A stretch of 45,391 nt of DNA from a virus. Its lineage: Duplodnaviria; Heunggongvirae; Uroviricota; Caudoviricetes. Where the stretch lies: positions 1 to 45,391 of the IMG/VR virus record IMGVR_UViG_2778261297_000007; one strand, 5' to 3'. Of the stretch, positions 3,842 through 44,694 are shown in pieces (the stretch's first letter is position 1; the number at the start of each line of letters is the position of its first letter). Under the pieces are notes generated by a model that was not told where the DNA came from, made no database searches, and saw nothing but the letters and a program-made list of their open reading frames with translations. The position numbers and the translations under genes were made by a program.

Positions 3842-4116
3842 TTCAAGATAAACTTGTTTATTTGATCAATGAATCTGTTCCTGAAGGTGGGTGGAAAAGT
3901 AAAGCAGCTGCGGTAAATGCTCTCATTGATCCTTTGTGGGACTTTATTAAAGAGTCAAATTTTGACATTAATAATGAAAGTAAAAAATATCGTATCGCAA
4001 CAATGAGCCAAGATGCTTTGGAAGATACTATTATTAAAAACTGGTCAAGAAATATTGAAAGTATCAAATTGGCTTTAGATAATACAGTTGCTAGAAAAAA
4101 GAAAGTCACAGGATAA
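3727..4116 (+). CDS. Hypothetical cargo protein 2 (frame -1 relative to upstream ORF; possible frameshifted continuation)
   Basis: ORF in a different frame overlapping 3727-3841 of the upstream ORF with no good independent start after 3841; may be a single gene interrupted by a frameshift or two overlapping genes. Confidence 0.3.
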   Translation: MYWYVMVSCFCMCSKKLSHVRAKAGKQGGSSKAEVYRVIQDKLVYLINESVPEGGWKSKAAAVNALIDPLWDFIKESNFDINNESKKYRIATMSQDALEDTIIKNWSRNIESIKLALDNTVARKKKVTG

Positions 4117-4142
4117 AAGCCCGTATTATTAATAGTTGAATT

Positions 4143-4167
4143 ATCAGCACCCATTATGGGTGCTGAT
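4143..4167. terminator. Bidirectional hairpin between convergent cargo gene and integrase
   Basis: Perfect inverted repeat atcagcaccc-attat-gggtgctgat located between the stop of the + cargo ORF and the stop of the - integrase. Confidence 0.4.
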
Positions 4168-4174
4168 AAAGGAT

Positions 4175-5416
4175 TCATCCCACAAGCCGTATTCCCCTAA
4201 CCCCACTATTAACGATACTGCCGCTATCTGCTGCTTTTACAAAATCAGCCCACCATTGCATCATCGGACGACGTTGCTCAAGATAATCACTGCGGTTATA
4301 AGCGCGACGCACCTCATTTTTGTCTACATGAGCAAGCGCTGCTTCAATGACATCAGGTGGAAATCCTTCCTCATTGAGTGCCGTACTGGCGATAGAACGC
4401 AAGCCGTGTGAAACAAGTACACCTCCTAAGCCAGCACGCTTGAGTGCTGCATTCACTGTTTGGCTATTCATTGGTTGGTTGGGCTTGATACGGCTAGGAA
4501 AGATAAATTCTCGGCCACCACTGAGAGGCTTCATCATTTCCAGAATAGCAAGAGCCCCATCAGATAGTGGAACCGTATGGTCCCGGTTCATCTTCATTCG
4601 AGCTGCAGGAATTTTCCATTCGCTAGCATTGAAATCGATCTCATCCCATCGAGCCTCAGCAGCTTCGGCAGGGCGGGTGATGGTTAGAAGTTGCCACATG
4701 AACAGGCATCGTGTGGACAGGCTGATACTTGCCGTGCGCATAGTCTGCATTAATTGTGGAAGTTGATCCGGGCGGATACTAGGCATGTTTTTCTTCTGCG
4801 GTTTCTCGAATGCTTTCCCGATGTTAACGCTGGGAACAGCATCAATTAGGCCTGTGTTCTGAGCATAAATCATGACTTCGTTAATACGCTGACAAAGGCG
4901 GCGAACAGTCTCTAATGCACCTCTGGCCTGAACCGGCTGCACTGCTTTAACCAGAGTATGAGCCTTAATCTCGGTGACACTGATATCACCGATTGCTGGG
5001 AAAACATCTCTCTCAAGCGAGCGCCAGATATCATCGGCATAGTCCTCTGTTACGCTGGCTTTCTTCACATTCCACCAACGCTCGGCAACTAACAGGAAAG
5101 TGTTGGTTTTAGCCTCTTGAGAATTTCTAACCTGCTCTTTCTGATGTTCCTGAGGATCAATGTCTTTCGCCAATAAAACTCGAGATTCAGCTCTGAGTTT
5201 ACGCGCATCAGAAAGGGAGACAGCAGGGTAGGCTCCGAAGCTTTGCTTGGTTCGCTGTTTTGTCAGAGGTCGATAGTAACGGAATTGCCAGAGCTTACTA
5301 CCACTGGACTTGATTAACAGAGTAAGCCCGTCACCATCATATAGCTGGTAATCGGCATCTTTAGGTTTGGCGGCTTTGATTTCCGTATCGGTTAACGGCT
5401 TGGTTTTTCTTGCCAT
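4175..5416 (-). CDS. int: Tyrosine site-specific integrase, P4-type (IntA/SlpA-like)
   Basis: Begins MARKTKPLTDTEIKAAKPKDADYQLYDGDGL (typical P4-family N-terminus); C-terminal catalytic region with R..H..R..Y-type motifs; adjacent to tmRNA 3'-end repeat. ATG at 5416 preferred over the upstream extension to 5452. Confidence 0.85.
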   Translation of the reverse strand: MARKTKPLTDTEIKAAKPKDADYQLYDGDGLTLLIKSSGSKLWQFRYYRPLTKQRTKQSFGAYPAVSLSDARKLRAESRVLLAKDIDPQEHQKEQVRNSQEAKTNTFLLVAERWWNVKKASVTEDYADDIWRSLERDVFPAIGDISVTEIKAHTLVKAVQPVQARGALETVRRLCQRINEVMIYAQNTGLIDAVPSVNIGKAFEKPQKKNMPSIRPDQLPQLMQTMRTASISLSTRCLFMWQLLTITRPAEAAEARWDEIDFNASEWKIPAARMKMNRDHTVPLSDGALAILEMMKPLSGGREFIFPSRIKPNQPMNSQTVNAALKRAGLGGVLVSHGLRSIASTALNEEGFPPDVIEAALAHVDKNEVRRAYNRSDYLEQRRPMMQWWADFVKAADSGSIVNSGVRGIRLVG

Positions 5417-5472: not shown

Positions 5473-5540
5473 ATCAATGGGCCTAAAAGGTTCGGATTTA
5501 ATTAGTTCTCTTCGGACTTCGCGGGACAAAGTGAGGGCAC

Positions 5541-5572
5541 AAAAAAGCCCGCAGGGCTTGCGCCGTGCGGGC
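5541..5572 (-). terminator. Rho-independent terminator downstream of the tmRNA 3' fragment (minus strand)
   Basis: GC-rich hairpin gcccgca...tgcgggc followed on the minus strand by a T6 run. Confidence 0.5.
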
Positions 5573-5619
5573 TCTTAGGACTTCATCGGATGACTCTGGT
5601 AATCACCGATGGAGAATTT

Positions 5620-5654
5620 TGGTGGAGCTGGCGGGAGTTGAACCCGTGTCCGAA
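5620..5654 (-). repeat. att core: duplicated 3' end of tmRNA (direct repeat of 44332-44366)
   Basis: tggtggagctggcgggagttgaacccgTgtccgaa matches the intact ssrA 3' end at 44332-44366 with one mismatch; similarity stops immediately beyond. Confidence 0.75.
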
Positions 5655-5778
5655 TAATGCTTAACCTATTGAATATTAATGTTTTGTCTTTTTTGAAAGG
5701 CCTCAAGTGCATTTTACGTGCATATCGTGGTCCCTCTAACGTCCTGATTCCGTCCAACATTTTGAAATACTCACGACG

Positions 5779-6951
5779 CTACAGAGCTGCTGAAATGGCG
5801 GTTTTCCCGTCGTATTCAGCCAGGTATTTACCGTAATTGCGGAACAGCATTTCCGGCCCTTTATGCCCCATCTGCCCGGCAAGCCAGAAAAGGTTTACGC
5901 CCTGGCTAATGTGTCTGGTGGCGAATGTGTGGCGGGTCTGGTACGGGTTACGGTATCGAACGCCAGCTTTTTTGAGGGTTGGCACCCATGCTTTTTTTCG
6001 TATTGCGTCGGCGTTCGCCCAGGGCTCTCCCGTTTTAGGGTCGCTGAAAATAAACTCGCTTTTCATGAAAGTGAATTGTTTCTGCGCCTGCAGCGCGGCC
6101 AGCGCCTCGCTGTTTAATTCTACTTTACGGGTACCGGCTTTTGTTTTGGTGCCTTTCAGAACGCCAACAACACTCGCCGCCTGAACGTGAGCTGTTTTAG
6201 CGATATTGTCGAGATCAGGCCAGCGCAACGCACACAGCTCAGAGCTGCGTAAACCTGTATTGAATGCGAAACGGAACAGGTTTTCCCATTCCGGATAACT
6301 GCAGCTCTGGTAAATGGCGCTGATTTCCGCTGGTGTGAACGGATCAACTTCGTAATCGTCACTATTCGGGCTGCTGTCGATCACGTGGTACCGACTCGCG
6401 CTGACAAGGGTTACCGGGTTGATAGTCAGCAGGCCGTCTGTCACCGCTTCATCTATGGCGCTGCGCAGAAACGAGAGGTTATTCCTGATTGTTTTCAGCT
6501 TTGTTTTTCTGCTGGCGATCCAGTTTTTGAGGACCGCAGGGGTCAGTTCCGATACATGCATTTTGTGCAGCGCAGATAGCGCAGACAGGCACTTTTCATA
6601 ACCGCCAATAGTGGACGGCGAAAGGTTGCGGTTCTGGCAGATTTTCAGATACTCGTCCAGGTAGGACTTAATATTTTTGGTTTTCTTCACTACCCCGAAC
6701 AGCTCCAGTTTTTTGGAGGTGGGGAAGTATTTCGCATAATCGAATGTGCCGCCGGCGATCTGATTCTGTATCTCCCCCAGCAGGCGCTCGGCATACTTCA
6801 CGCCGCGCGCGTTTGCTTCCATTCTGGAAAGGGGCTCCCGGCAGAGAACCCCCTTGTAGGTGAATGTGATCACCAGGGTGTCGCCAGTTTTATGCTGGCG
6901 AATGGTTACTCCTCTTGGGAGAGATAATGATCCTTGTTCTTTCTTGCCCAC
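5779..6951 (-). CDS. int: Phage tyrosine integrase
   Basis: 390-aa ORF with C-terminal tyrosine-recombinase region (...RHTFATRHISQGVNLFWLAGQMGHKGPEMLFRNYGKYL); adjacent to att repeat and followed by an excisionase-like gene. Confidence 0.85.
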   Translation of the reverse strand: MGKKEQGSLSLPRGVTIRQHKTGDTLVITFTYKGVLCREPLSRMEANARGVKYAERLLGEIQNQIAGGTFDYAKYFPTSKKLELFGVVKKTKNIKSYLDEYLKICQNRNLSPSTIGGYEKCLSALSALHKMHVSELTPAVLKNWIASRKTKLKTIRNNLSFLRSAIDEAVTDGLLTINPVTLVSASRYHVIDSSPNSDDYEVDPFTPAEISAIYQSCSYPEWENLFRFAFNTGLRSSELCALRWPDLDNIAKTAHVQAASVVGVLKGTKTKAGTRKVELNSEALAALQAQKQFTFMKSEFIFSDPKTGEPWANADAIRKKAWVPTLKKAGVRYRNPYQTRHTFATRHISQGVNLFWLAGQMGHKGPEMLFRNYGKYLAEYDGKTAISAAL

Positions 6952-16690: not shown

Positions 16691-16767
16691 CGGCCCTTTA
16701 GCTCAGTTGGTTAGAGCGTGCGACTCATAATCGCCCGGTCGCTGGTTCAAGTCCAGCAAGGGCCACC
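16691..16767 (+). tRNA. tRNA-Ile2 (CAU, ileX-like; may score as tRNA-Met)
   Basis: Cloverleaf with anticodon loop CTCATAA; close to the E. coli ileX sequence as recalled; ends in CCA. Confidence 0.7.
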
Positions 16768-16769
16768 AG

Positions 16770-16844
16770 ACCGCCACTAGCTCATCGGGAAGAGCGGCAA
16801 CCCAGGTGTTGTGGTACGGGGTTCGAGGCTCCGGTGGCGGACCA
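16770..16844 (+). tRNA. tRNA-like sequence with anomalous anticodon arm (possible pseudo-tRNA or unusual tRNA)
   Basis: Good 7-bp acceptor stem, D arm and T arm (TTCGAGG loop), CCA end; by hand-folding the anticodon loop is 6 nt (CCAGGT), so the anticodon is unresolved. Confidence 0.4.
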
Positions 16845-16846
16845 CT

Positions 16847-16922
<76 letters not shown>

Positions 16923-16925
16923 TAT

Positions 16926-17000
<75 letters not shown>

Positions 17001-17380
17001 GTTTAAGCTTTTCGGTCTGCGATGATGGGTTCCCCGGAGTGACTGGAAAGCGACCTGGTTTTGAATGGGCGCTGCTTTTTGCAAAATTGCTGTGTGAAAA
17101 TACTGACCTTTGGGTTCAGCGCTCATCCAAAAGCATCACGTGAATTCACCAACGCTCATGTACTCTCCAGGAAACAATAAGTGATTCTGAAAAGTTCCGG
17201 TTAGATATTGCCCCGGTCACCGGATGATTTTATCTTTTGGTTCGTGGTGAATCCTCCTATGCGGCGGGGCGTCCAGTCAAACTTTTTTGTCCAGGTTTGT
17301 TTGCGCGGAACTAGTCGGCTGGGGCTGTTCCACCGGGAGGCACCCGGCGCCACCTCCTTGACGGTATTGTTATTTTTCAT

Positions 17381-17407
17381 GCCTGTTCGTCCGAGCAGGC
17401 TTTTTTT
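17381..17407 (+). terminator. Strong rho-independent terminator (candidate tR'-like)
   Basis: gcctgttcgtccgagcaggc hairpin followed by T7 in the long non-coding stretch between the tRNAs and the holin. Confidence 0.5.
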
Positions 17408-17811
17408 GCCCGCATTATCTTCATTGAAAACTGGCAACTCAGAGAATCATCCAAATTAAAAAAGCAGCAACGAGAGCGATTACTAATACATTCTTCGCTT
17501 TTTCTCTTCTGCTGGCCTTCACAAAAGGATTCACTATCCGGCAGTGGCTACACACAAGTGATTCTGGGTTAATTAACTTTCCGCAGTAGGGACAGGGCTT
17601 GATAATCATTGGTACTAATTAAGTTGTGAGAACGTAGTCTCATTTAACCACATTTATCGAGTTGTTTTACTAATGGTCTAGTTATTTCAGACATATTCAT
17701 CAATTTCAGGCTCACGGGAATCATCCGCTACGTGCTTTGTTGATAAATCCAGCCCGTGAAGCCTGACCCTTTCATCACACACAGCACCCGCTAACTATGC
17801 GAGGTGAGGCT

Positions 17812-28271: not shown

Positions 28272-28715
28272 ATGTCTGCACTTTATGAAAAATCGCAGCT
28301 GACGAAGATCCTTATTTCCTCTGCGCCAGCCACCAAAGAAACGATGGATACCGCAACCTTCCTCGATCTGAGTTGCACCATCAAAGAAATTCAGTTCACT
28401 GGTGGCCAGAAGCAGGATATCGACGTAACAACGCTTTGCTCTACCGAGCAGGAGAACATCAACGGCCTGCCTTCTCCGTCAGAAATCTCTCTGTCCGGAA
28501 ACTTCTATAAGAATCCGGCGCAGGACGCCTTGCGTGAAGCGTATGACAACGATACGACCTACGCTTTCCAGGTTATCTTCCCTTCCGGCAAGGGCTTTAA
28601 GTTCCTGGCTGAAATCCGCCAGCACACCTGGTCTTCAGGTACCAACGGCGTAGTGGCGGCAACGTTCTCCCTGCGTCTGAAAGGTAAGCCTGAAAATATC
28701 GAGTCTGGCTCCTGA
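28272..28715 (+). CDS. Major tail (tube) protein
   Basis: 147 aa with GGAG RBS; followed by chaperone pair and tape measure. Confidence 0.6.
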   Translation: MSALYEKSQLTKILISSAPATKETMDTATFLDLSCTIKEIQFTGGQKQDIDVTTLCSTEQENINGLPSPSEISLSGNFYKNPAQDALREAYDNDTTYAFQVIFPSGKGFKFLAEIRQHTWSSGTNGVVAATFSLRLKGKPENIESGS

Positions 28716-28723
28716 GAGGTCGC

Positions 28724-29107
28724 ATGAAGAATATTAAAAATCTCGCCCTGGCTAAGATGTCGGGTTTTCGTCATAAGACGGTCGCCGTTCCTGAGTGGGA
28801 AGGCGTCAAAGTGGTTCTCCGTGAGCCATCAGGTGAAGCCTGGCTGCGCTGGCAGGAAGTGGTGAAAGCGGGTGCTGATGATGAAAATGTGTCAGTATCG
28901 GAAAAGGCACACCGTAATCTTTGCGCTGACGTGGTGCTCTTCATTGACGTTCTGTGTGACACCGATAAGCAGCCGGTATTCAGCGTAGACGAAGAAGAGC
29001 AGGTGCGTGAAATCTACGGCCCCGTCCATTCACGCCTGCTCAAACAGGCGCTTGACCTGATCAACAACGCGGGCGAAGCGCGGGAAAAGTCTCAACCCCC
29101 GGCGTAA
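28724..29107 (+). CDS. Tail assembly chaperone (G-like)
   Basis: 127-aa acidic protein immediately upstream of a -1-frame ORF and the tape measure. Confidence 0.6.
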   Translation: MKNIKNLALAKMSGFRHKTVAVPEWEGVKVVLREPSGEAWLRWQEVVKAGADDENVSVSEKAHRNLCADVVLFIDVLCDTDKQPVFSVDEEEQVREIYGPVHSRLLKQALDLINNAGEAREKSQPPA

Positions 29108-29115
29108 AGTTTCTG

Positions 29116-29394
29116 ATGTCGCTTGCGCTCCGGATGGGGCGCACGCTCTCAGAGCTTCGGCAGAATATGACGGCAAGCGAGCTTCTGATGTGGATTGAGT
29201 ACGACAGGCAAAGTCCGGTTGGCGATATTCGTGGTGACATTCAGGCCGCCCAGCTCGTCTCTGCCATCTACGGCTCGCAGGGGGCAAAAGTACCGCTGGA
29301 CGATGCGATCCTGCGCTGGGGTGGTGATGAGCAATCAGAACCGAAGGACCCGTTTGCAGGGCTTGAGGCGGCTTTAGAGGCTGCAACAAATTAG
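29116..29394 (+). CDS. Tail assembly chaperone extension (T-like; probable G-T -1 frameshift product)
   Basis: Lies in the -1 frame relative to the G-like gene and that frame is open back to 29077, overlapping the end of G. Confidence 0.45.
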   Translation: MSLALRMGRTLSELRQNMTASELLMWIEYDRQSPVGDIRGDIQAAQLVSAIYGSQGAKVPLDDAILRWGGDEQSEPKDPFAGLEAALEAATN

Positions 29395-29414
29395 GGCGGA
29401 GAACCGCCCATAAT

Positions 29415-29834
29415 TTAATTAAGCTGTGAGAGTATAAAAATTACGAAACCAACAAGAATTATAGCTCCTATAACTTTACCAATATTTTCTGCCACATTTT
29501 CTGTCTGCTGAGCTTGCGCATTCAATTCTGATGTTTTTTCTAAAATGGTACTAGTTATAGCGTTGAACTCTTCAGCAAGGGTATTATAAATAGAGACTTG
29601 AGCCTCTTCAGGTTCGTTCTCGAAAAAATCGTTAATGGCATCATTACTCTCAAGTGTTGCTATATGAACATTTTCCCCAATTGAGGATATGTAGTCAAAA
29701 TAGTCACACTGAGTTTGTGCTAAAGCTCTTATTCTTTTACGAATTGGCTTATACGCAAGTGATCCATCATCCTTTTCCCTGATCTCATAATAATCATCGG
29801 GATTACCGGGGACTTCAAAGTTTAAACTCAACAT
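29415..29834 (-). CDS. Moron: tail-anchored membrane protein of unknown function (AT-rich)
   Basis: Opposite-strand ORF between chaperone and tape measure; ATG at 29834 with GGAG RBS; C-terminal TM helix (IGKVIGAIILVGFVIFILSQLN). Confidence 0.5.
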   Translation of the reverse strand: MLSLNFEVPGNPDDYYEIREKDDGSLAYKPIRKRIRALAQTQCDYFDYISSIGENVHIATLESNDAINDFFENEPEEAQVSIYNTLAEEFNAITSTILEKTSELNAQAQQTENVAENIGKVIGAIILVGFVIFILSQLN

Positions 29835-29923
29835 ATTTATCTCCAGATGCGCGAGAAAAAACGCCAACCCTCAAAGGTTTTAGTGGGAGTGGCTATTCCA
29901 TTTTCCTTATTAAGGTACAAGAG

Positions 29924-32900
29924 ATGGCGGCTCTACGCGAATTAATAATTAAAATCTCTGCGAACTCTCAGTCCTTCCAGACTGAGATAGCTCGCGCCTC
30001 GCGAATGGGGGCGGATTATTACCGAACCATGCAAAATGGTGGCCGACAGGCTGCTGCCGCAGCGCGTGAAAGTGAAAGGGCGCTGTCAGAGCTTACCAAT
30101 GGATTTGCGTCAGCAGGAAAAGCTGCAGCAGCTGCTAGCGCAGCGTTTGCAACTGGGAAAATTGTGCAAATTGCTGATGAGTGGAATTCAGTAAACGCTC
30201 GTCTTAAACAGGCATCATCTTCAGCAGATGATTTTGCTGCCTCTCAGCGCCAGTTAATGGAAATTAGCCAAAGAACAGGTACTGCGTTTTCAGATAACGC
30301 AAACCTTTTTTCACGTGCAGCTGCTTCAATGCGTGAATATGGTTATAGCTCAGATGAAGTTCTGAAGATTACTGAAGCTGTTTCTACTGGCCTCAAACTT
30401 TCTGGGGCTAACACTCAGGAAGCGAGTTCTGTTATTACTCAATTCAGCCAGGCCTTGGCGCAGGGCGTTCTTCGCGGTGAAGAATTTAACGCCGTTAACG
30501 AAGCAGGTGATCGCGTAATCCGTGCTCTTGCAGCCGGAATGGGCGTCGCGAGAAAAGACCTGAAGAGCATGGCTGACCAGGGACAGCTTACGATTGATAA
30601 GGTTGTTCCAGCATTGGTAAGTCAGCTAGATAATCTTCAAAGTGAGTTCAAAAGCTTACCACAAACGGTTTCTGGTTCTTTGCAGAAGGTTACTAACTCA
30701 TTCATGCAATGGGTTGGAGGTATTGATCAGGCTACCGGCGCAACGGCAGGGTTGTCTGGTGGGCTGGATAGTTTAGCTCAAACTCTGGACGCGTTCACTT
30801 CTTCAGCTGTTAGCGGTGCCTTGAACGACGTTGCTGACAATATGTCCACTATCACAACAGTTGCCGGGGCACTTGTTGGCGTTGGGCTAGCTCGATACCT
30901 TAGCGGGGTGGCGACAAGTGCCACGAGTGCAACAGGTGCGCTAATTTCAGCTGCGAAATCAGAGGTTGCGCTTGCTGTCGCACAGGACAAAGCTGCTCTG
31001 TCTGCTGTTGCAGCTTCAAGGGCTGAAGTTTATCGTGCTCAGCAAGCCGTGCAGACCTCGCGTAGCGCAGATGTTCAGGCTGCTCAGCAAGAGAAAATTG
31101 CCGCAGCAGAAGCAAAGGTTACAGCAGCTCAAGCCAGGCTGACTACTGCTCTTGCAACTGGTACCGCTACGGAAAAAGTCAGGGCCAGAACAGCTCTTGA
31201 GCGTGCTCAGGCAAGCCTTGTTGCAGCCAAAAATGCTGATGCTCAGGCCGTTTCTGAAAGGCGCCTTGCTGCTGCTCAGGCTGCCTTAAGTCGTAACCTT
31301 GCAAACCGTGTTTCAGCTCAAAGCAATCTCAATAGCGTTACATCAGTAGGCTCACGCCTTATGGGTGGGGCACTCGGGCTTATTGGTGGCGTGCCCGGGT
31401 TGGTAATGCTTGGGGCCGGTGCCTGGTATGCGATGTACCAAAACCAGGAGCAGGCCCGTCGTTCTGCCCAGGAATACGCCAGTCAAATTGACGAAATTAG
31501 AGAAAAAACATCCCGAATGTCTTTGTCGGAAACAGACGACAATAGGGGGAAAACTGTTGGTGCCCTAGTTGAGCAAAATCGCCTGGTTGATGAGCAATCC
31601 AGAAAAGTTGGTGAGCTGAAAGCTCAAATAGACGATTTGAATGCTTCTCGCGGCAAACCAGGTATTACCAGCGAGAACGATGCAAATATACTGAGAGCGA
31701 TAGCTATTGTTACGGATCAACTTGCTGTTGAAGAGGGAAAATTAAATGACATGCGAGATAAATCTCGCGGCATACAGCAGGCTCTGGAAGAAATTGAACG
31801 GCGTCGTAATGATTTAATTCGCGAACAAGCCTGGCGACAAAATGCGGTATATCAGTCGATGATCATGATGAATGGTCAACATACTGAATTTAACCGCCTG
31901 TTAGGGCTTGGCAATCAACTCCTTATGGTTCGCCAGGGGCTTGCTAATGTTCCGCTCAGACTTCCTCAGGCAGACCTCGACAAAAAGCAAACTGATGCTC
32001 TCGAAAAGAGTCGCCGGGATCTGGAGTTGTCACGCCTGAAGGGTGAGGCCAAAGAGCGCCTGCGTCTGAGTTATGCAGCCGATGACCTGGGGTTAACCAG
32101 TGATCCGCAATTCCAGACAGGCCGTCAGGAGTTGATTGATAACGGTCTTGCTGAATGGCGGAATAATGAGGCCAACAAACCTAAGGCGAAGGGTGGTAAA
32201 ACCGAAGGCGAGAAAACCGAGGATGTGTATAAGCGCCTTATCAAGCAGCAAAAAGAGCAGATTGCCCTGCAAGGCCAGAATACTGAACTGGCGAAGGTTA
32301 AATACCAGGTCAGCCAGGGCGAACTTGCTTCTCTGACAGAAGCCCAGAAAAAGACGGTATTGCAGAATGCTGCGCTGATTGACCAGGTTAAATTACGTGA
32401 GCAACTGCGAAATTACGAAGCCAACCTTGCTGACAGTAACGCCAGCGCCCGCGCAGCCAATGAAGCGCAACTGCTGGGCTACGGGCAGGGCTCCAGGTTC
32501 CGTGAAAGACTTCAGGAGCAGTTCAATCTGCGTAAGGAGTTCGAGCAAAAGAATACCGATCTTCTCCGCCAGCGTCAGGCTGGTGAAATCGACGAGACGT
32601 TCTATCAGCAGGGACTGGCACTTAATAAGCGCTATCTCGAGGAGCGTCTGCGCGACCAGGAGGGATATTACGCAGCTTCTGATGCGCAGCGTGACGACTG
32701 GATGACGGGACTGTCTGAGGGTTATGCGAACTGGGTGGACGAAGCTACTGACTATTCTTCCATGGCCGCTGACGGCATGAAGCAGGCTATGGGGGGCGCG
32801 GTCACCACGATCACCGACATGCTCAATGGCAACGTTGACAGCTGGAAGGACTGGGGCGTCAGCGTACTGAAGATTATCCAGAACGTGCTGGTGAATATGG

Positions 32901-33388
32901 CTGTTGCTAATGGCGTTAGCTCAATTGGTTCACTGTTCAGTTTTGGGGCTTCGTCATCCGCTACCGCCAGCAGCGGTACCGCTATTCAGAATGCTGGGGC
33001 GAACTTCACCTTTAATGCGAAGGGTAATGTTTACGACTCTCCGTCCCTGAGCGCTTTCAGCAATGGCGTTTTCCAGACGCCTCAGCTGTTTGCTTTTGCC
33101 AAAGGCGCAGGGGTTTTTGCCGAGGCAGGACCGGAAGCCATTATGCCACTCACGCGGGCAGCTGACGGTTCGCTTGGCGTTAGGGCAGTTGGTACTCCGC
33201 AGGTCTCTGGCGGCGTGCCTTCAGTTAACTTCGGCGATATCAATATTCAGGGCGGATCTCCACAGGCGTCCAGTCAGGGTACTGCCGGAGCAGCAGGCTG
33301 GCAGCTTAAGGATGCCATCACTGGCGTCATTAATGAACAGGCCAGCATGCCTGGATCGCCTCTGTGGCGTTTAATCAAGGGGGTTTAA
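29924..33388 (+). CDS. Tail tape measure protein
   Basis: 1154 aa, Ala/Gln-rich coiled-coil; canonical position. Confidence 0.85.
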   Translation: MAALRELIIKISANSQSFQTEIARASRMGADYYRTMQNGGRQAAAAARESERALSELTNGFASAGKAAAAASAAFATGKIVQIADEWNSVNARLKQASSSADDFAASQRQLMEISQRTGTAFSDNANLFSRAAASMREYGYSSDEVLKITEAVSTGLKLSGANTQEASSVITQFSQALAQGVLRGEEFNAVNEAGDRVIRALAAGMGVARKDLKSMADQGQLTIDKVVPALVSQLDNLQSEFKSLPQTVSGSLQKVTNSFMQWVGGIDQATGATAGLSGGLDSLAQTLDAFTSSAVSGALNDVADNMSTITTVAGALVGVGLARYLSGVATSATSATGALISAAKSEVALAVAQDKAALSAVAASRAEVYRAQQAVQTSRSADVQAAQQEKIAAAEAKVTAAQARLTTALATGTATEKVRARTALERAQASLVAAKNADAQAVSERRLAAAQAALSRNLANRVSAQSNLNSVTSVGSRLMGGALGLIGGVPGLVMLGAGAWYAMYQNQEQARRSAQEYASQIDEIREKTSRMSLSETDDNRGKTVGALVEQNRLVDEQSRKVGELKAQIDDLNASRGKPGITSENDANILRAIAIVTDQLAVEEGKLNDMRDKSRGIQQALEEIERRRNDLIREQAWRQNAVYQSMIMMNGQHTEFNRLLGLGNQLLMVRQGLANVPLRLPQADLDKKQTDALEKSRRDLELSRLKGEAKERLRLSYAADDLGLTSDPQFQTGRQELIDNGLAEWRNNEANKPKAKGGKTEGEKTEDVYKRLIKQQKEQIALQGQNTELAKVKYQVSQGELASLTEAQKKTVLQNAALIDQVKLREQLRNYEANLADSNASARAANEAQLLGYGQGSRFRERLQEQFNLRKEFEQKNTDLLRQRQAGEIDETFYQQGLALNKRYLEERLRDQEGYYAASDAQRDDWMTGLSEGYANWVDEATDYSSMAADGMKQAMGGAVTTITDMLNGNVDSWKDWGVSVLKIIQNVLVNMAVANGVSSIGSLFSFGASSSATASSGTAIQNAGANFTFNAKGNVYDSPSLSAFSNGVFQTPQLFAFAKGAGVFAEAGPEAIMPLTRAADGSLGVRAVGTPQVSGGVPSVNFGDINIQGGSPQASSQGTAGAAGWQLKDAITGVINEQASMPGSPLWRLIKGV

Positions 33389-44331: not shown

Positions 44332-44694
44332 TGGTGGAGCTGGCGGGAGTTGAACCCGCGTCCGAAATTCCTACATCCTCGGTACTACATGCTTAGTCAG
44401 TCTTTACATTCGCTTGCCAGCTGCGGACGGACACGCCACTAACAAACTAGCCTGATTAAGTTTTAACGCTTCAACCCCAGGCAGGGCTTCCACGCGATCT
44501 CTTTTGGGTTTGACCTCTCTTGATCCCCGTCCTAAGAGCGGAGGCTAGGGAGAGAGGGCTCTAAGCAGGTTATTAAGCTGCTAAAGCGTAGTTTTCGTCG
44601 TTTGCGACTATTTTTTGCGGCTTTTTACGAGGCCAACCGCCCCTCGGCATGCACCTTGGGTTTCGCAAATCCCGTCGAATCCAGAATCAGCCCC
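44332..44694 (-). ncRNA. ssrA: tmRNA (SsrA)
   Basis: Reverse complement begins GGGGCTGATTCTGGATTCGACGGGATTTGCGAAACCC and ends ...GGACGCGGGTTCAACTCCCGCCAGCTCCACCA; contains the tag-template region (...AAACGACGAAAACTACGCTTTAGCAGCTTAA). Confidence 0.9.

What the first reader, a model, noticed from the sequence alone, without database searches (positions are those of the whole stretch)
29395..29923. Antisense tail-anchored membrane protein inserted between tail chaperone (G/T) and tape-measure genes
Seen in sequence: a 139-aa ORF (29415-29834) on the minus strand, strongly AT-rich relative to the flanking tail genes, with GGAG RBS and a single C-terminal TM helix. Established knowledge: the G/T-to-tape-measure junction is normally tightly packed and same-stranded, so an opposite-strand insert is a typical moron. 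Inference: candidate superinfection-exclusion or abortive-infection membrane protein.
Basis: partly seen in the sequence, partly recalled or inferred. Interest (0 to 1): 0.6.

Follow-up and report, generated by a model that had tools for sequence, protein, structure and literature searches.

The report
Antisense membrane-protein moron beside tape-measure gene
A real, conserved gene for a small membrane-anchored protein of unknown family sits backwards in the HK97-type prophage slot where phages keep swappable genes that block rival phages, so it is a good but untested candidate for a new phage-exclusion protein.

Summary
A 139-aa minus-strand gene (29415-29834) with a GGAG ribosome-binding site, 35% GC and one C-terminal membrane helix fills the gap between tail chaperone gene T and the tape-measure gene. 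It is under strong purifying selection (dN/dS about 0.05).

This is the slot where HK97 carries gene 15, the original "moron" and a proven superinfection-exclusion gene. In 79 relatives with a T protein at least 96% identical, the slot is never empty. It holds eight unrelated AT-rich cassettes, all encoding envelope proteins, including gp15/YebO and Cor, both known exclusion proteins. The 139-aa gene occurs in 12 of the 79 and is the only antisense cassette.

The protein belongs to an unnamed family of 76 clusters. Members have an acidic helical head, a long stalk helix and a C-terminal anchor. There is no Pfam, PHROG, PADLOC or structural match. Distant members also lie just upstream of tape-measure genes in other phage types, or downstream of mnt, where P22 keeps sieA.

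The best reading is a prophage-expressed inner-membrane exclusion protein acting on tape-measure-dependent DNA entry (about 45%). Function, expression and topology are untested.

The parts
29415..29834 (-). Gene for a 139-aa tail-anchored membrane protein with an acidic helical head, a stalk helix and a C-terminal TM helix. It belongs to an unnamed family.
   Evidence: ORF and sequence. 12 close homologues, and 76 clusters at E<1e-3 in an exhaustive profile search. dN/dS 0.05. AF2 model pLDDT 92. No Pfam, PHROG, NCBIfam or PADLOC family.
29421..29483 (-). Codons for the C-terminal transmembrane segment (residues about 118-138). Only one residue follows it.
   Evidence: Hydropathy scan. In the family, 81 of 92 sequences have their TM segment at the extreme C-terminus, with a 0-5 residue tail that never contains D or E. 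AF2 models a continuous helix 76-138.
29841..29844 (-). GGAG ribosome-binding site, 6 nt upstream of the ATG at 29834.
   Evidence: Read directly from the sequence. GGAG or GAG is conserved at this position in relatives while the rest of the leader diverges.
29835..29923 (.). 89-bp intergenic region between the divergent starts of the 139-aa gene and the tape-measure gene. It holds both ribosome-binding sites and presumably the moron's promoter, which was not identified.
   Evidence: 41.6% GC. No promoter-like site at the scan's threshold. No significant RNA structure, z 0.17. The sequence diverges between subgroups except at the two ribosome-binding sites and starts.
29380..29424 (.). Hairpin with core GGGCGG-TTCT-CCGCCC at 29394-29409, flanked by complementary A/T tracts. 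Likely intrinsic terminator for the 139-aa gene, possibly bidirectional. It overlaps the stop codons of T and of the 139-aa gene.
   Evidence: Terminator scan hit on the minus strand. RNA fold -18.8 kcal/mol, z -4.55, with 0 of 200 shuffles as stable. The stem is conserved with loop changes in relatives L004 and L021-L041.
29116..29394 (+). Left border: tail assembly protein T, the frameshift extension of chaperone G (28724-29107).
   Evidence: PF06223 E 3e-20 and PF06222 E 6e-59. 96% identical to HK97 gp14. The mosaic junction with relatives falls at its stop codon.
29924..33388 (+). Right border: tape-measure protein (1154 aa). It diverges in step with the 139-aa gene.
   Evidence: PF20155, PF06120 and PF09718. 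Nucleotide identity to L021 falls from 93-99% in TTP/G/T to 75-86% across the moron, and stays at 81-93% in the tape-measure gene.

Best explanation
The segment is a moron cassette in the HK97-type T|tape-measure slot. It has its own ribosome-binding site and terminator and is transcribed against the late tail operon.

It encodes a tail-anchored inner-membrane protein. A compact, strongly acidic head (a beta-hairpin plus helices) sits on a long stalk helix that continues into a single C-terminal membrane helix. The head most likely faces the cytoplasm.

The most likely function is superinfection exclusion. Made in the lysogen, the protein would sit in the inner membrane and stop incoming siphoviruses from completing tape-measure-dependent DNA entry, as HK97 gp15 does from the same slot.

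Shown: the gene, its selection, its architecture, its accessory status, the nature of the slot and the family's genomic contexts.
Inferred: expression in the lysogen, membrane topology, and the exclusion activity and its target.
For: 1. It is a real, selected gene.
2. It occupies the same slot as HK97 gene 15, a moron whose product is an inner-membrane exclusion protein. [quoted passage not shown]
3. In 79 relatives with near-identical T, the slot always holds one of eight unrelated AT-rich cassettes, and every product is an envelope protein:
   - this gene;
   - gp15/YebO (PF13974);
   - a 2-TM zinc-ribbon protein;
   - a secreted Cys-rich protein;
   - four lipoproteins, one of which is Cor, a known exclusion protein (phrog_1119, E 2e-30).

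4. Family members at 23-44% identity are again found directly 5' of tape-measure genes in other tail-module types, in either orientation.
5. In pKOR-0e8e the homologue starts 4 nt after a true mnt gene (PF11423), divergent from arc-ant. This matches P22's mnt-orf59a-sieA layout, and Mnt is a lysogeny-maintenance function.
6. The gene co-diverges with the tape-measure gene, not with G/T.
7. One four-domain member lies on a plasmid-like contig with Rep3 and NikA-like genes. This fits a membrane function that serves mobile elements in general.
Against: - There is no experimental or transcript evidence.
- No sigma-70-like promoter was found upstream.
- There is no sequence or fold similarity to any known exclusion protein. 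hhalign probability is below 1% against gp15 and against P22 SieA, and PADLOC gives no hit.
- If the head is cytoplasmic, it cannot meet the tape-measure protein in the periplasm. It could act only on what reaches or crosses the inner membrane. A cytoplasmic head is what tail anchoring and the 2x and 4x tandem-domain variants suggest.
- Guilt by location is weak evidence, and morons have many functions.
- Some members sit in other accessory slots: after Q, and next to a gpI-like gene.
Confidence: 0.45

Rival explanations
1. A cytoplasm-facing defence that acts after entry. The acidic head, held at the membrane, would bind an invading phage's tape-measure protein or chaperone and block tail assembly, as Tab and Tai do. 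Alternatively, binding would trigger membrane damage and abortive infection. In the HK97-like lineage, the antisense orientation would let late transcription shut the gene off, so the prophage's own tails assemble.
For: - Tail-anchor architecture and the tandem 2x and 4x head variants favour a cytoplasmic head.
- Tight linkage and co-divergence with the tape-measure gene is what a blocker needing a resistant self-allele would show.
- Tab is a moron product whose specificity maps to the tape-measure protein (PMC10884400).
- Tai systems occur in prophages of enterobacteria (PMC11364771).
Against: - The other seven cassettes in the slot are lipoproteins, secreted proteins or membrane proteins. 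Several cannot reach cytoplasmic assembly intermediates, so the slot's theme points to entry.
- No adjacent counter-defence gene is present.
- Distant members are co-oriented with the tail operon, so the antisense shut-off is not general.
- No sequence comparison to Tab or Tai was run.
Confidence: 0.2
2. A lysogenic-conversion gene unrelated to phage defence. The membrane-anchored protein would change host physiology, for example stress tolerance, transport or envelope properties, to the benefit of the lysogen.
For: - Morons have diverse functions (PMC3594210).
- No defence-family match was found.
- Members also occur in the Q-to-lysis moron slot and on a plasmid-like contig.
- From my own knowledge, not tested here: the helical-head-plus-C-terminal-anchor layout resembles host stress proteins such as ElaB and YqjD.
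Against: The repeated placement beside tape-measure genes in several unrelated tail modules, and the company of known exclusion genes in the same slot, are not explained by this reading.
Confidence: 0.15
3. A function in the phage's own lytic cycle, for example helping tape-measure handling, tail assembly at the membrane or lysis timing.
For: - The gene is adjacent to tape-measure genes in many phages.
- It is co-oriented with them in several lineages, with short gaps of 62-100 bp.
- It co-diverges with the tape-measure gene.
Against: - It is antisense to the late operon in all of the roughly 35 close relatives.
- It is dispensable: 67 of 79 near-identical tail modules lack it.
- It is found in the mnt operon and after Q in other phages.
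Confidence: 0.08
4. Not a gene: a chance ORF in an AT-rich spacer.
For: No promoter was detected, and no database family exists.
Against: - dN/dS is 0.05 with saturated synonymous sites.
- 76 related clusters have conserved R32, R36, D65 and E89.
- AF2 gives pLDDT 92.
Confidence: 0.01

Closest known systems
HK97 gp15 (YebO family), the original moron and a superinfection-exclusion protein
   Same: Identical genomic slot, from the T stop codon to the tape-measure start codon. Both are AT-rich (33% against 35% GC), both are small single-pass inner-membrane proteins, and both are followed by their own terminator (PMC3594210).
   Different: No homology: hhalign probability 0.9%, and no PF13974 hit. 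139 aa against 62 aa. The TM helix is at the C-terminus rather than the N-terminus. It lies on the opposite strand. gp15 accompanies the 70-72% tape-measure N-terminal type, and this gene the 96-100% type.
P22 SieA
   Same: SieA is a prophage-expressed inner-membrane protein that blocks DNA injection. A homologue of the window protein lies downstream of mnt next to arc-ant, the position sieA has in P22 (PMC10883804).
   Different: SieA has three TM segments and no detectable similarity (hhalign probability 0.65%). Its targets are podovirus ejection proteins, not a tape-measure protein.
Cor (phi80, N15, HK022, T1), an exclusion lipoprotein
   Same: An alternative cassette in the very same slot among near-identical tail modules.
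   Different: Cor is a 78-aa lipoprotein acting on the outer-membrane receptor FhuA (PMC3594210). It is unrelated in sequence, is exported, and lies on the sense strand.
Tab (JBD26) and Tai (PICI and prophage) tail-assembly inhibitors
   Same: Small moron-encoded or satellite-encoded proteins that defend by targeting tail components. Tab's specificity maps to the tape-measure protein.
   Different: They are described as acting on cytoplasmic assembly, come with a partner counter-defence gene, and sit at other loci (between the terminase genes, or near the packaging module). No membrane anchor is reported in the parts I read. No sequence comparison to them was run.
Bacterial tail-anchored proteins such as ElaB, YqjD and YgaM (from my own knowledge, not tested)
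   Same: A helical cytoplasmic head plus a single C-terminal anchor ending in basic residues. 46 of 81 family members end in K or R.
   Different: No Pfam DUF883 hit. Those are chromosomal stress proteins, not mobile-element cargo.

Membership tests
Moron (sensu Juhala, Hendrix; Cumby 2012) | Extra DNA between two genes that are adjacent, or differently filled, in related phages. | tested here: met
   Only 12 of 79 loci with T at least 96% identical carry it. The others carry seven different cassettes between the same two genes. No relative with a truly empty slot was seen.
Moron (sensu Juhala, Hendrix; Cumby 2012) | Base composition unlike the surrounding genes. | tested here: met
   35.5% GC against 58% for T and 52% for the tape-measure gene.
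Moron (sensu Juhala, Hendrix; Cumby 2012) | Own terminator. | tested here: met
   GC hairpin followed by a T-rich tail just after the stop codon, z -4.55, conserved in relatives.
Moron (sensu Juhala, Hendrix; Cumby 2012) | Own promoter. | tested here: inconclusive
   No site reaching 9 of 12 consensus matches in the 89-bp upstream region or in the start of the tape-measure gene. The antisense orientation means it cannot use the late promoter, so some promoter must exist if the gene is expressed.
Moron (sensu Juhala, Hendrix; Cumby 2012) | Expressed from the repressed prophage. | not testable with these tools
   No transcript data are available. There is indirect support only: a homologue lies 4 nt downstream of mnt.
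HK97 gp15 / YebO family (PF13974) | Sequence similarity to YebO or gp15, with an N-terminal TM helix. | tested here: not met
   No PF13974 hit. hhalign probability 0.9%. The TM helix is C-terminal.
P22 SieA family | Three TM segments and the cytoplasmic FxRYPxEAxxFNK motif (PMC10883804). | tested here: not met
   One TM segment. hhalign probability 0.65%. The family's EPxEA motif resembles the SieA motif only superficially.
Superinfection-exclusion proteins (functional class) | Prophage-expressed protein that blocks adsorption or DNA entry of incoming phage. | not testable with these tools
   Needs plating, adsorption and DNA-entry assays.
Tail-anchored membrane protein (architectural class) | Single TM segment within about 30 residues of the C-terminus and no signal peptide. 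| tested here: met
   TM at residues 118-138 of 139. The N-terminus is polar and acidic with no hydrophobic leader. The actual orientation in the membrane was not determined.
Known anti-phage defence systems (PADLOC-DB 2.0) | Match to a defence-protein profile. | tested here: not met
   0 families at E up to 1. The library dates from 2023 and so predates Tab and Tai.

The most novel reading that the evidence does not exclude
The 139-aa protein is the first noticed member of a widespread, unnamed family of acidic tail-anchored membrane proteins. The family is carried by enterobacterial siphovirus prophages, and at least once by a plasmid. It is physically coupled to tape-measure genes across several unrelated tail modules and would constitute a new tape-measure-directed exclusion or defence mechanism. 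The T|tape-measure junction of HK97-like phages would then be a dedicated, rapidly shuffled exclusion-cassette locus, of which gp15 was only the first example.
Probability: 0.35. Interest if true: 0.65.

Novelty: new variant of a known kind. Interest (0 to 1): 0.45.

Why it matters
Only a handful of inner-membrane proteins are known to stop phage DNA entry, among them gp15, SieA, Imm and Sie2009, and none is understood mechanistically.

This gene offers a new, well-folded candidate family (AF2 pLDDT 92) with a clear genetic handle. It has natural alleles linked to particular tape-measure types. It also has natural controls: near-identical tail modules that carry other cassettes instead.

The survey also shows that the classic HK97 gene-15 site is a cassette locus. 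At least eight envelope-protein genes, including Cor and gp15, replace one another there. That gives a simple positional rule for finding new exclusion genes in prophages.

If the function is instead post-entry, it would link membrane anchoring to tape-measure-directed defence, which would be new.

Tried and rejected
Approaches that gave nothing useful:
- Pfam, PHROGs, NCBIfam and PADLOC on the protein and on 27 diverse relatives gave nothing above threshold.
- A profile search of PDB sequences gave nothing below E 0.4.
- Profile comparison with gp15 and with P22 SieA showed no relation.
- The promoter scan and my own reading of the upstream alignment found no convincing or conserved -35/-10 pair. 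The 5' region has no significant RNA structure. Rfam finds nothing in or near the segment.
- The Cumby 2012 J Bacteriol paper (PMC3430355) is not held, so gp15 facts come from PMC3594210 and PMC10883804.
- A related-loci scan with the diverse alignment failed for lack of a conserved stretch.

Ideas considered and dropped:
- Weak matches of residues about 70-130 to tape-measure profiles (phrog_28 E 0.068; TIGR01760 E 0.013; BLASTP to the neighbouring tape-measure protein E 0.032). I judged these to be helical and hydrophobic composition, not homology.
- Using the positive-inside rule to fix topology. The basic C-terminal residue in 46 of 81 members would suggest the head faces out. But post-translational insertion of a C-terminal anchor, and the 450-residue four-domain variant, argue for head-in. 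I left this unresolved.
- Assuming the window is E. coli ECONIH5. It is identical only around the tail-shaft genes and differs elsewhere.

Full report
**1. What is in the sequence**

The interval 29395-29923 is exactly the gap between the stop codon of tail assembly gene T (29116-29394, PF06223) and the start codon of the tape-measure gene (29924-33388; PF20155, PF06120, PF09718). Chaperone G (28724-29107, PF06222) and the tail tube gene lie upstream.

On the minus strand there is an ORF at 29415-29834, with ATG at 29834 and GGAG six bases upstream. The mechanical ORF list extends it to a TTG at 29867. All homologues start at MLSLNFEVPG, and the DNA upstream of that ATG is not conserved, so 139 aa is the product.

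The ORF is 35.5% GC, against 58% for T and 52% for the tape-measure gene.

Just after its stop codon lies a GC hairpin, GGGCGG-TTCT-CCGCCC (29394-29409). It is extended by complementary A/T tracts and followed by TAATTTGTTG. Its fold energy is -18.8 kcal/mol with z -4.55, and the stem is kept in relatives. The A-tract and T-tract arms would suit a bidirectional terminator. In a lambdoid late operon, read-through by Q-modified polymerase is expected (established knowledge).

No promoter-like site reaching the scan's threshold lies upstream, and the 89-bp leader has no significant structure.

**2. It is a real gene**

There are twelve close homologues in the protein collection and 30 IMG/VR loci at 34-100% identity.

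Against the nearest divergent allele (L021), pS is 0.64 and pN is 0.07, giving dN/dS 0.05. Against the other alleles, synonymous sites are saturated while pN stays at 0.13-0.22.

**3. The protein**

With a 60-sequence alignment, AlphaFold gives pLDDT 92 and pTM 0.71. The model has these elements:
- a beta-hairpin at residues 16-30;
- helices at 32-51 and 56-70;
- one continuous helix at 76-138, whose last 21 residues are the only hydrophobic segment.

The head is strongly acidic, with 22 D+E against 8 K+R. Every one of 60 family members has a net negative head, with a median charge of -8.

An exhaustive profile search finds 76 clusters at E<1e-3, mostly 115-150 aa. R32, R36, D65 and E89 are invariant and G53 nearly so. 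In the set of sequences collected, 81 of 92 have the membrane segment at the extreme C-terminus. The tail after it is 0-5 residues long, often ends in K or R, and never contains D or E. Some members have two or four tandem heads before the single anchor.

I could not fix the topology. Post-translational insertion of a C-terminal anchor and the 450-residue four-head variant favour a cytoplasmic head. The charge pattern around the anchor would allow the opposite orientation.

**4. The slot**

HK97 carries gene 15 at this same place, annotated as a moron product. It is the element for which the word moron was coined. [quoted passage not shown]

I fetched 80 IMG/VR loci whose T protein is 96-100% identical to the window's; 79 could be classified. 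The T-to-tape-measure gap is never empty (288-1630 bp). It holds one of eight unrelated cassettes of 32-44% GC:

| Cassette | Loci |
|---|---|
| This gene (the only cassette on the minus strand) | 12 |
| 111-aa protein with two TM segments and a zinc ribbon (PF13248) | 21 |
| gp15/YebO (PF13974) | 9 |
| ~100-aa secreted Cys-rich protein | 12 |
| 113-aa lipoprotein (lipobox ISAC) | 8 |
| 121-aa lipoprotein (lipobox IAGC) | 9 |
| ~113-aa lipoprotein (lipobox VTGC) | 2 |
| 78-aa lipoprotein (lipobox LSGC) | 6 |

The 78-aa lipoprotein is Cor (phrog_1119, E 2e-30), and one of its six copies is interrupted by an inserted transposase gene.

Complete E. coli genomes show the same pattern. Two of 5426 carry this gene (ECONIH5 and ES5). 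Others with the same G/T genes carry the zinc-ribbon or the YebO cassette.

So the gene is accessory. Its neighbours-by-substitution are all envelope proteins, and two of them are proven exclusion proteins.

**5. Linkage to the tape-measure gene**

In all close relatives the gene is antisense between T and the tape-measure gene. Between the window and L021, nucleotide identity behaves as follows:
- 93-99% through the tail tube, G and T genes;
- a drop at the T stop codon to 75-86% across the moron;
- 81-93% on into the tape-measure gene.

In a second group (L003, L034-38), G and T are only 53-61% identical at the protein level, while the moron (78-83%) and the tape-measure N-terminus (80%) stay close. 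The recombination joint is therefore at T|moron, and the moron travels with the tape-measure gene.

**6. Distant relatives**

Members at 23-44% identity sit in these contexts:
- Directly upstream of, and co-oriented with, tape-measure genes in phages with a different chaperone (DUF6246) and capsid type (L044-48).
- Between an arc-ant module and the tape-measure gene.
- After a block of KilA-N, repressor and antirepressor genes, separated from the tape-measure gene by a lipoprotein gene.
- As a two-head form 67 bp before a 1342-aa tape-measure gene.

In K. oxytoca pKOR-0e8e, the homologue starts 4 nt after a true mnt gene (PF03869 plus PF11423). It is divergent from arc-ant and antisense to the tail genes. 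This mirrors P22, where mnt, orf59a and sieA lie on the same side of arc-ant.

Other members lie after antiterminator Q ahead of the lysis genes, next to a gpI-like gene, and, for a four-head form, on a contig with Rep3 and NikA-like plasmid genes. The family is thus mobile cargo with a marked preference for the 5' side of tape-measure genes. All tape-measure genes seen beside it that carry a Pfam annotation have the PF20155 domain. That domain is common, so I give this little weight.

**7. Interpretation**

The best reading (about 45%) is a prophage-expressed inner-membrane exclusion protein that interferes with tape-measure-dependent DNA entry, by analogy with gp15. It rests on:
- the envelope theme of the slot;
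- the presence of two proven exclusion families among the slot's alternatives;
- the mnt-operon context;
- the linkage to the tape-measure gene.

The main rival (about 20%) is a post-entry defence in which a cytoplasmic head binds tape-measure protein or chaperone, like Tab or Tai, or triggers abortive infection. It explains the linkage well, because a blocker must travel with a resistant self-allele. It also gives the antisense orientation a purpose. But it does not fit the exported nature of the sister cassettes, and no counter-defence partner is present.

Lysogenic conversion unrelated to phages (about 15%) and a role in the phage's own lytic cycle (about 8%) remain possible. A chance ORF is excluded.

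**8. Novelty**

The kind of element is well known: a moron encoding a small membrane protein in the HK97 gene-15 slot. The protein family is unnamed and unrelated to gp15, SieA or Cor. Literature searches found nothing on it. The antisense orientation is unique among the cassettes seen. I rate it a new variant of a known kind, of moderate interest.

**9. Source of the window**

The 1.9 kb around the gene is 100% identical to E. coli ECONIH5. The window is not collinear with that prophage elsewhere. It has a tRNA cluster, an STnc100 sRNA, lambda-type tail-tip genes, and a tmRNA gene at its right end. It is therefore a mosaic relative in another genome.

Noticed in passing
window 29395-29923, compared with loci L054-L133: The T|tape-measure gap of HK97-like prophages behaves as a cassette locus. 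At least eight unrelated AT-rich genes for envelope proteins, including Cor and gp15/YebO, replace one another between near-identical flanks, and the slot was never empty in the 79 relatives that could be classified.
   Followed up: yes
L098 (IMG/VR 2872117924_000003), slot of 1630 bp: The Cor cassette in this slot is interrupted by a 322-aa minus-strand ORF that looks like a transposase. This is an insertion sequence landing in an exclusion gene. I did not run a family search on the ORF.
   Followed up: partly
window 28272-28715 (+): The tail tube protein is only 147 aa, against about 234 aa in HK97. It lacks the C-terminal part, and RefSeq marks the identical gene in ECONIH5 and others as a pseudogene that is missing its C-terminus. 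The short form is conserved at 93-100% identity in many relatives, so it is probably a natural domain-less variant and not a broken gene.
   Followed up: partly
window 16692-16997 and 17219-17411 (+): Three tRNA genes and an STnc100 sRNA match lie in the region upstream of the lysis genes. That is another classic accessory region of lambdoid prophages.
   Followed up: no
window 44332-44694 (-): A full-length tmRNA gene (296 bits) lies at the right end, with smpB-like sequence beyond it, so the prophage appears to sit at the ssrA attachment site. The window is not collinear with ECONIH5 there, although it is identical to ECONIH5 around the tail-shaft genes.
   Followed up: partly
L008 (Klebsiella phage 2 LV-2017, KY271396) 3902-4219 (+): An unannotated 105-aa ORF whose last 70 or so residues match the family (stalk plus anchor) but whose N-terminus is unrelated. 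It is a truncated or rearranged copy in an isolated phage genome.
   Followed up: partly
L134 (Logan SRR27257406 contig) 603-2030: A 475-aa family member with four tandem heads and one C-terminal anchor lies on a contig with Rep3 replication and NikA-like genes. The family therefore also occurs on plasmids.
   Followed up: partly
window protein residues ~70-130; tape-measure protein residues 515-549: There are weak, repeated similarities of the stalk and anchor to tape-measure profiles (phrog_28 E 0.068, TIGR01760 E 0.013) and to the neighbouring tape-measure protein (BLASTP E 0.032). This is probably composition, but mimicry of a tape-measure segment is not excluded.
   Followed up: partly
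L007 (pKOR-0e8e) 5478-6144 and L017 6494-6874: Further small envelope-protein genes lie in the chaperone-to-tape-measure interval of other phage types, next to the family member. They encode a 106-aa N-terminal-TM protein, a 112-aa secreted protein and a 126-aa lipoprotein.
   Followed up: no
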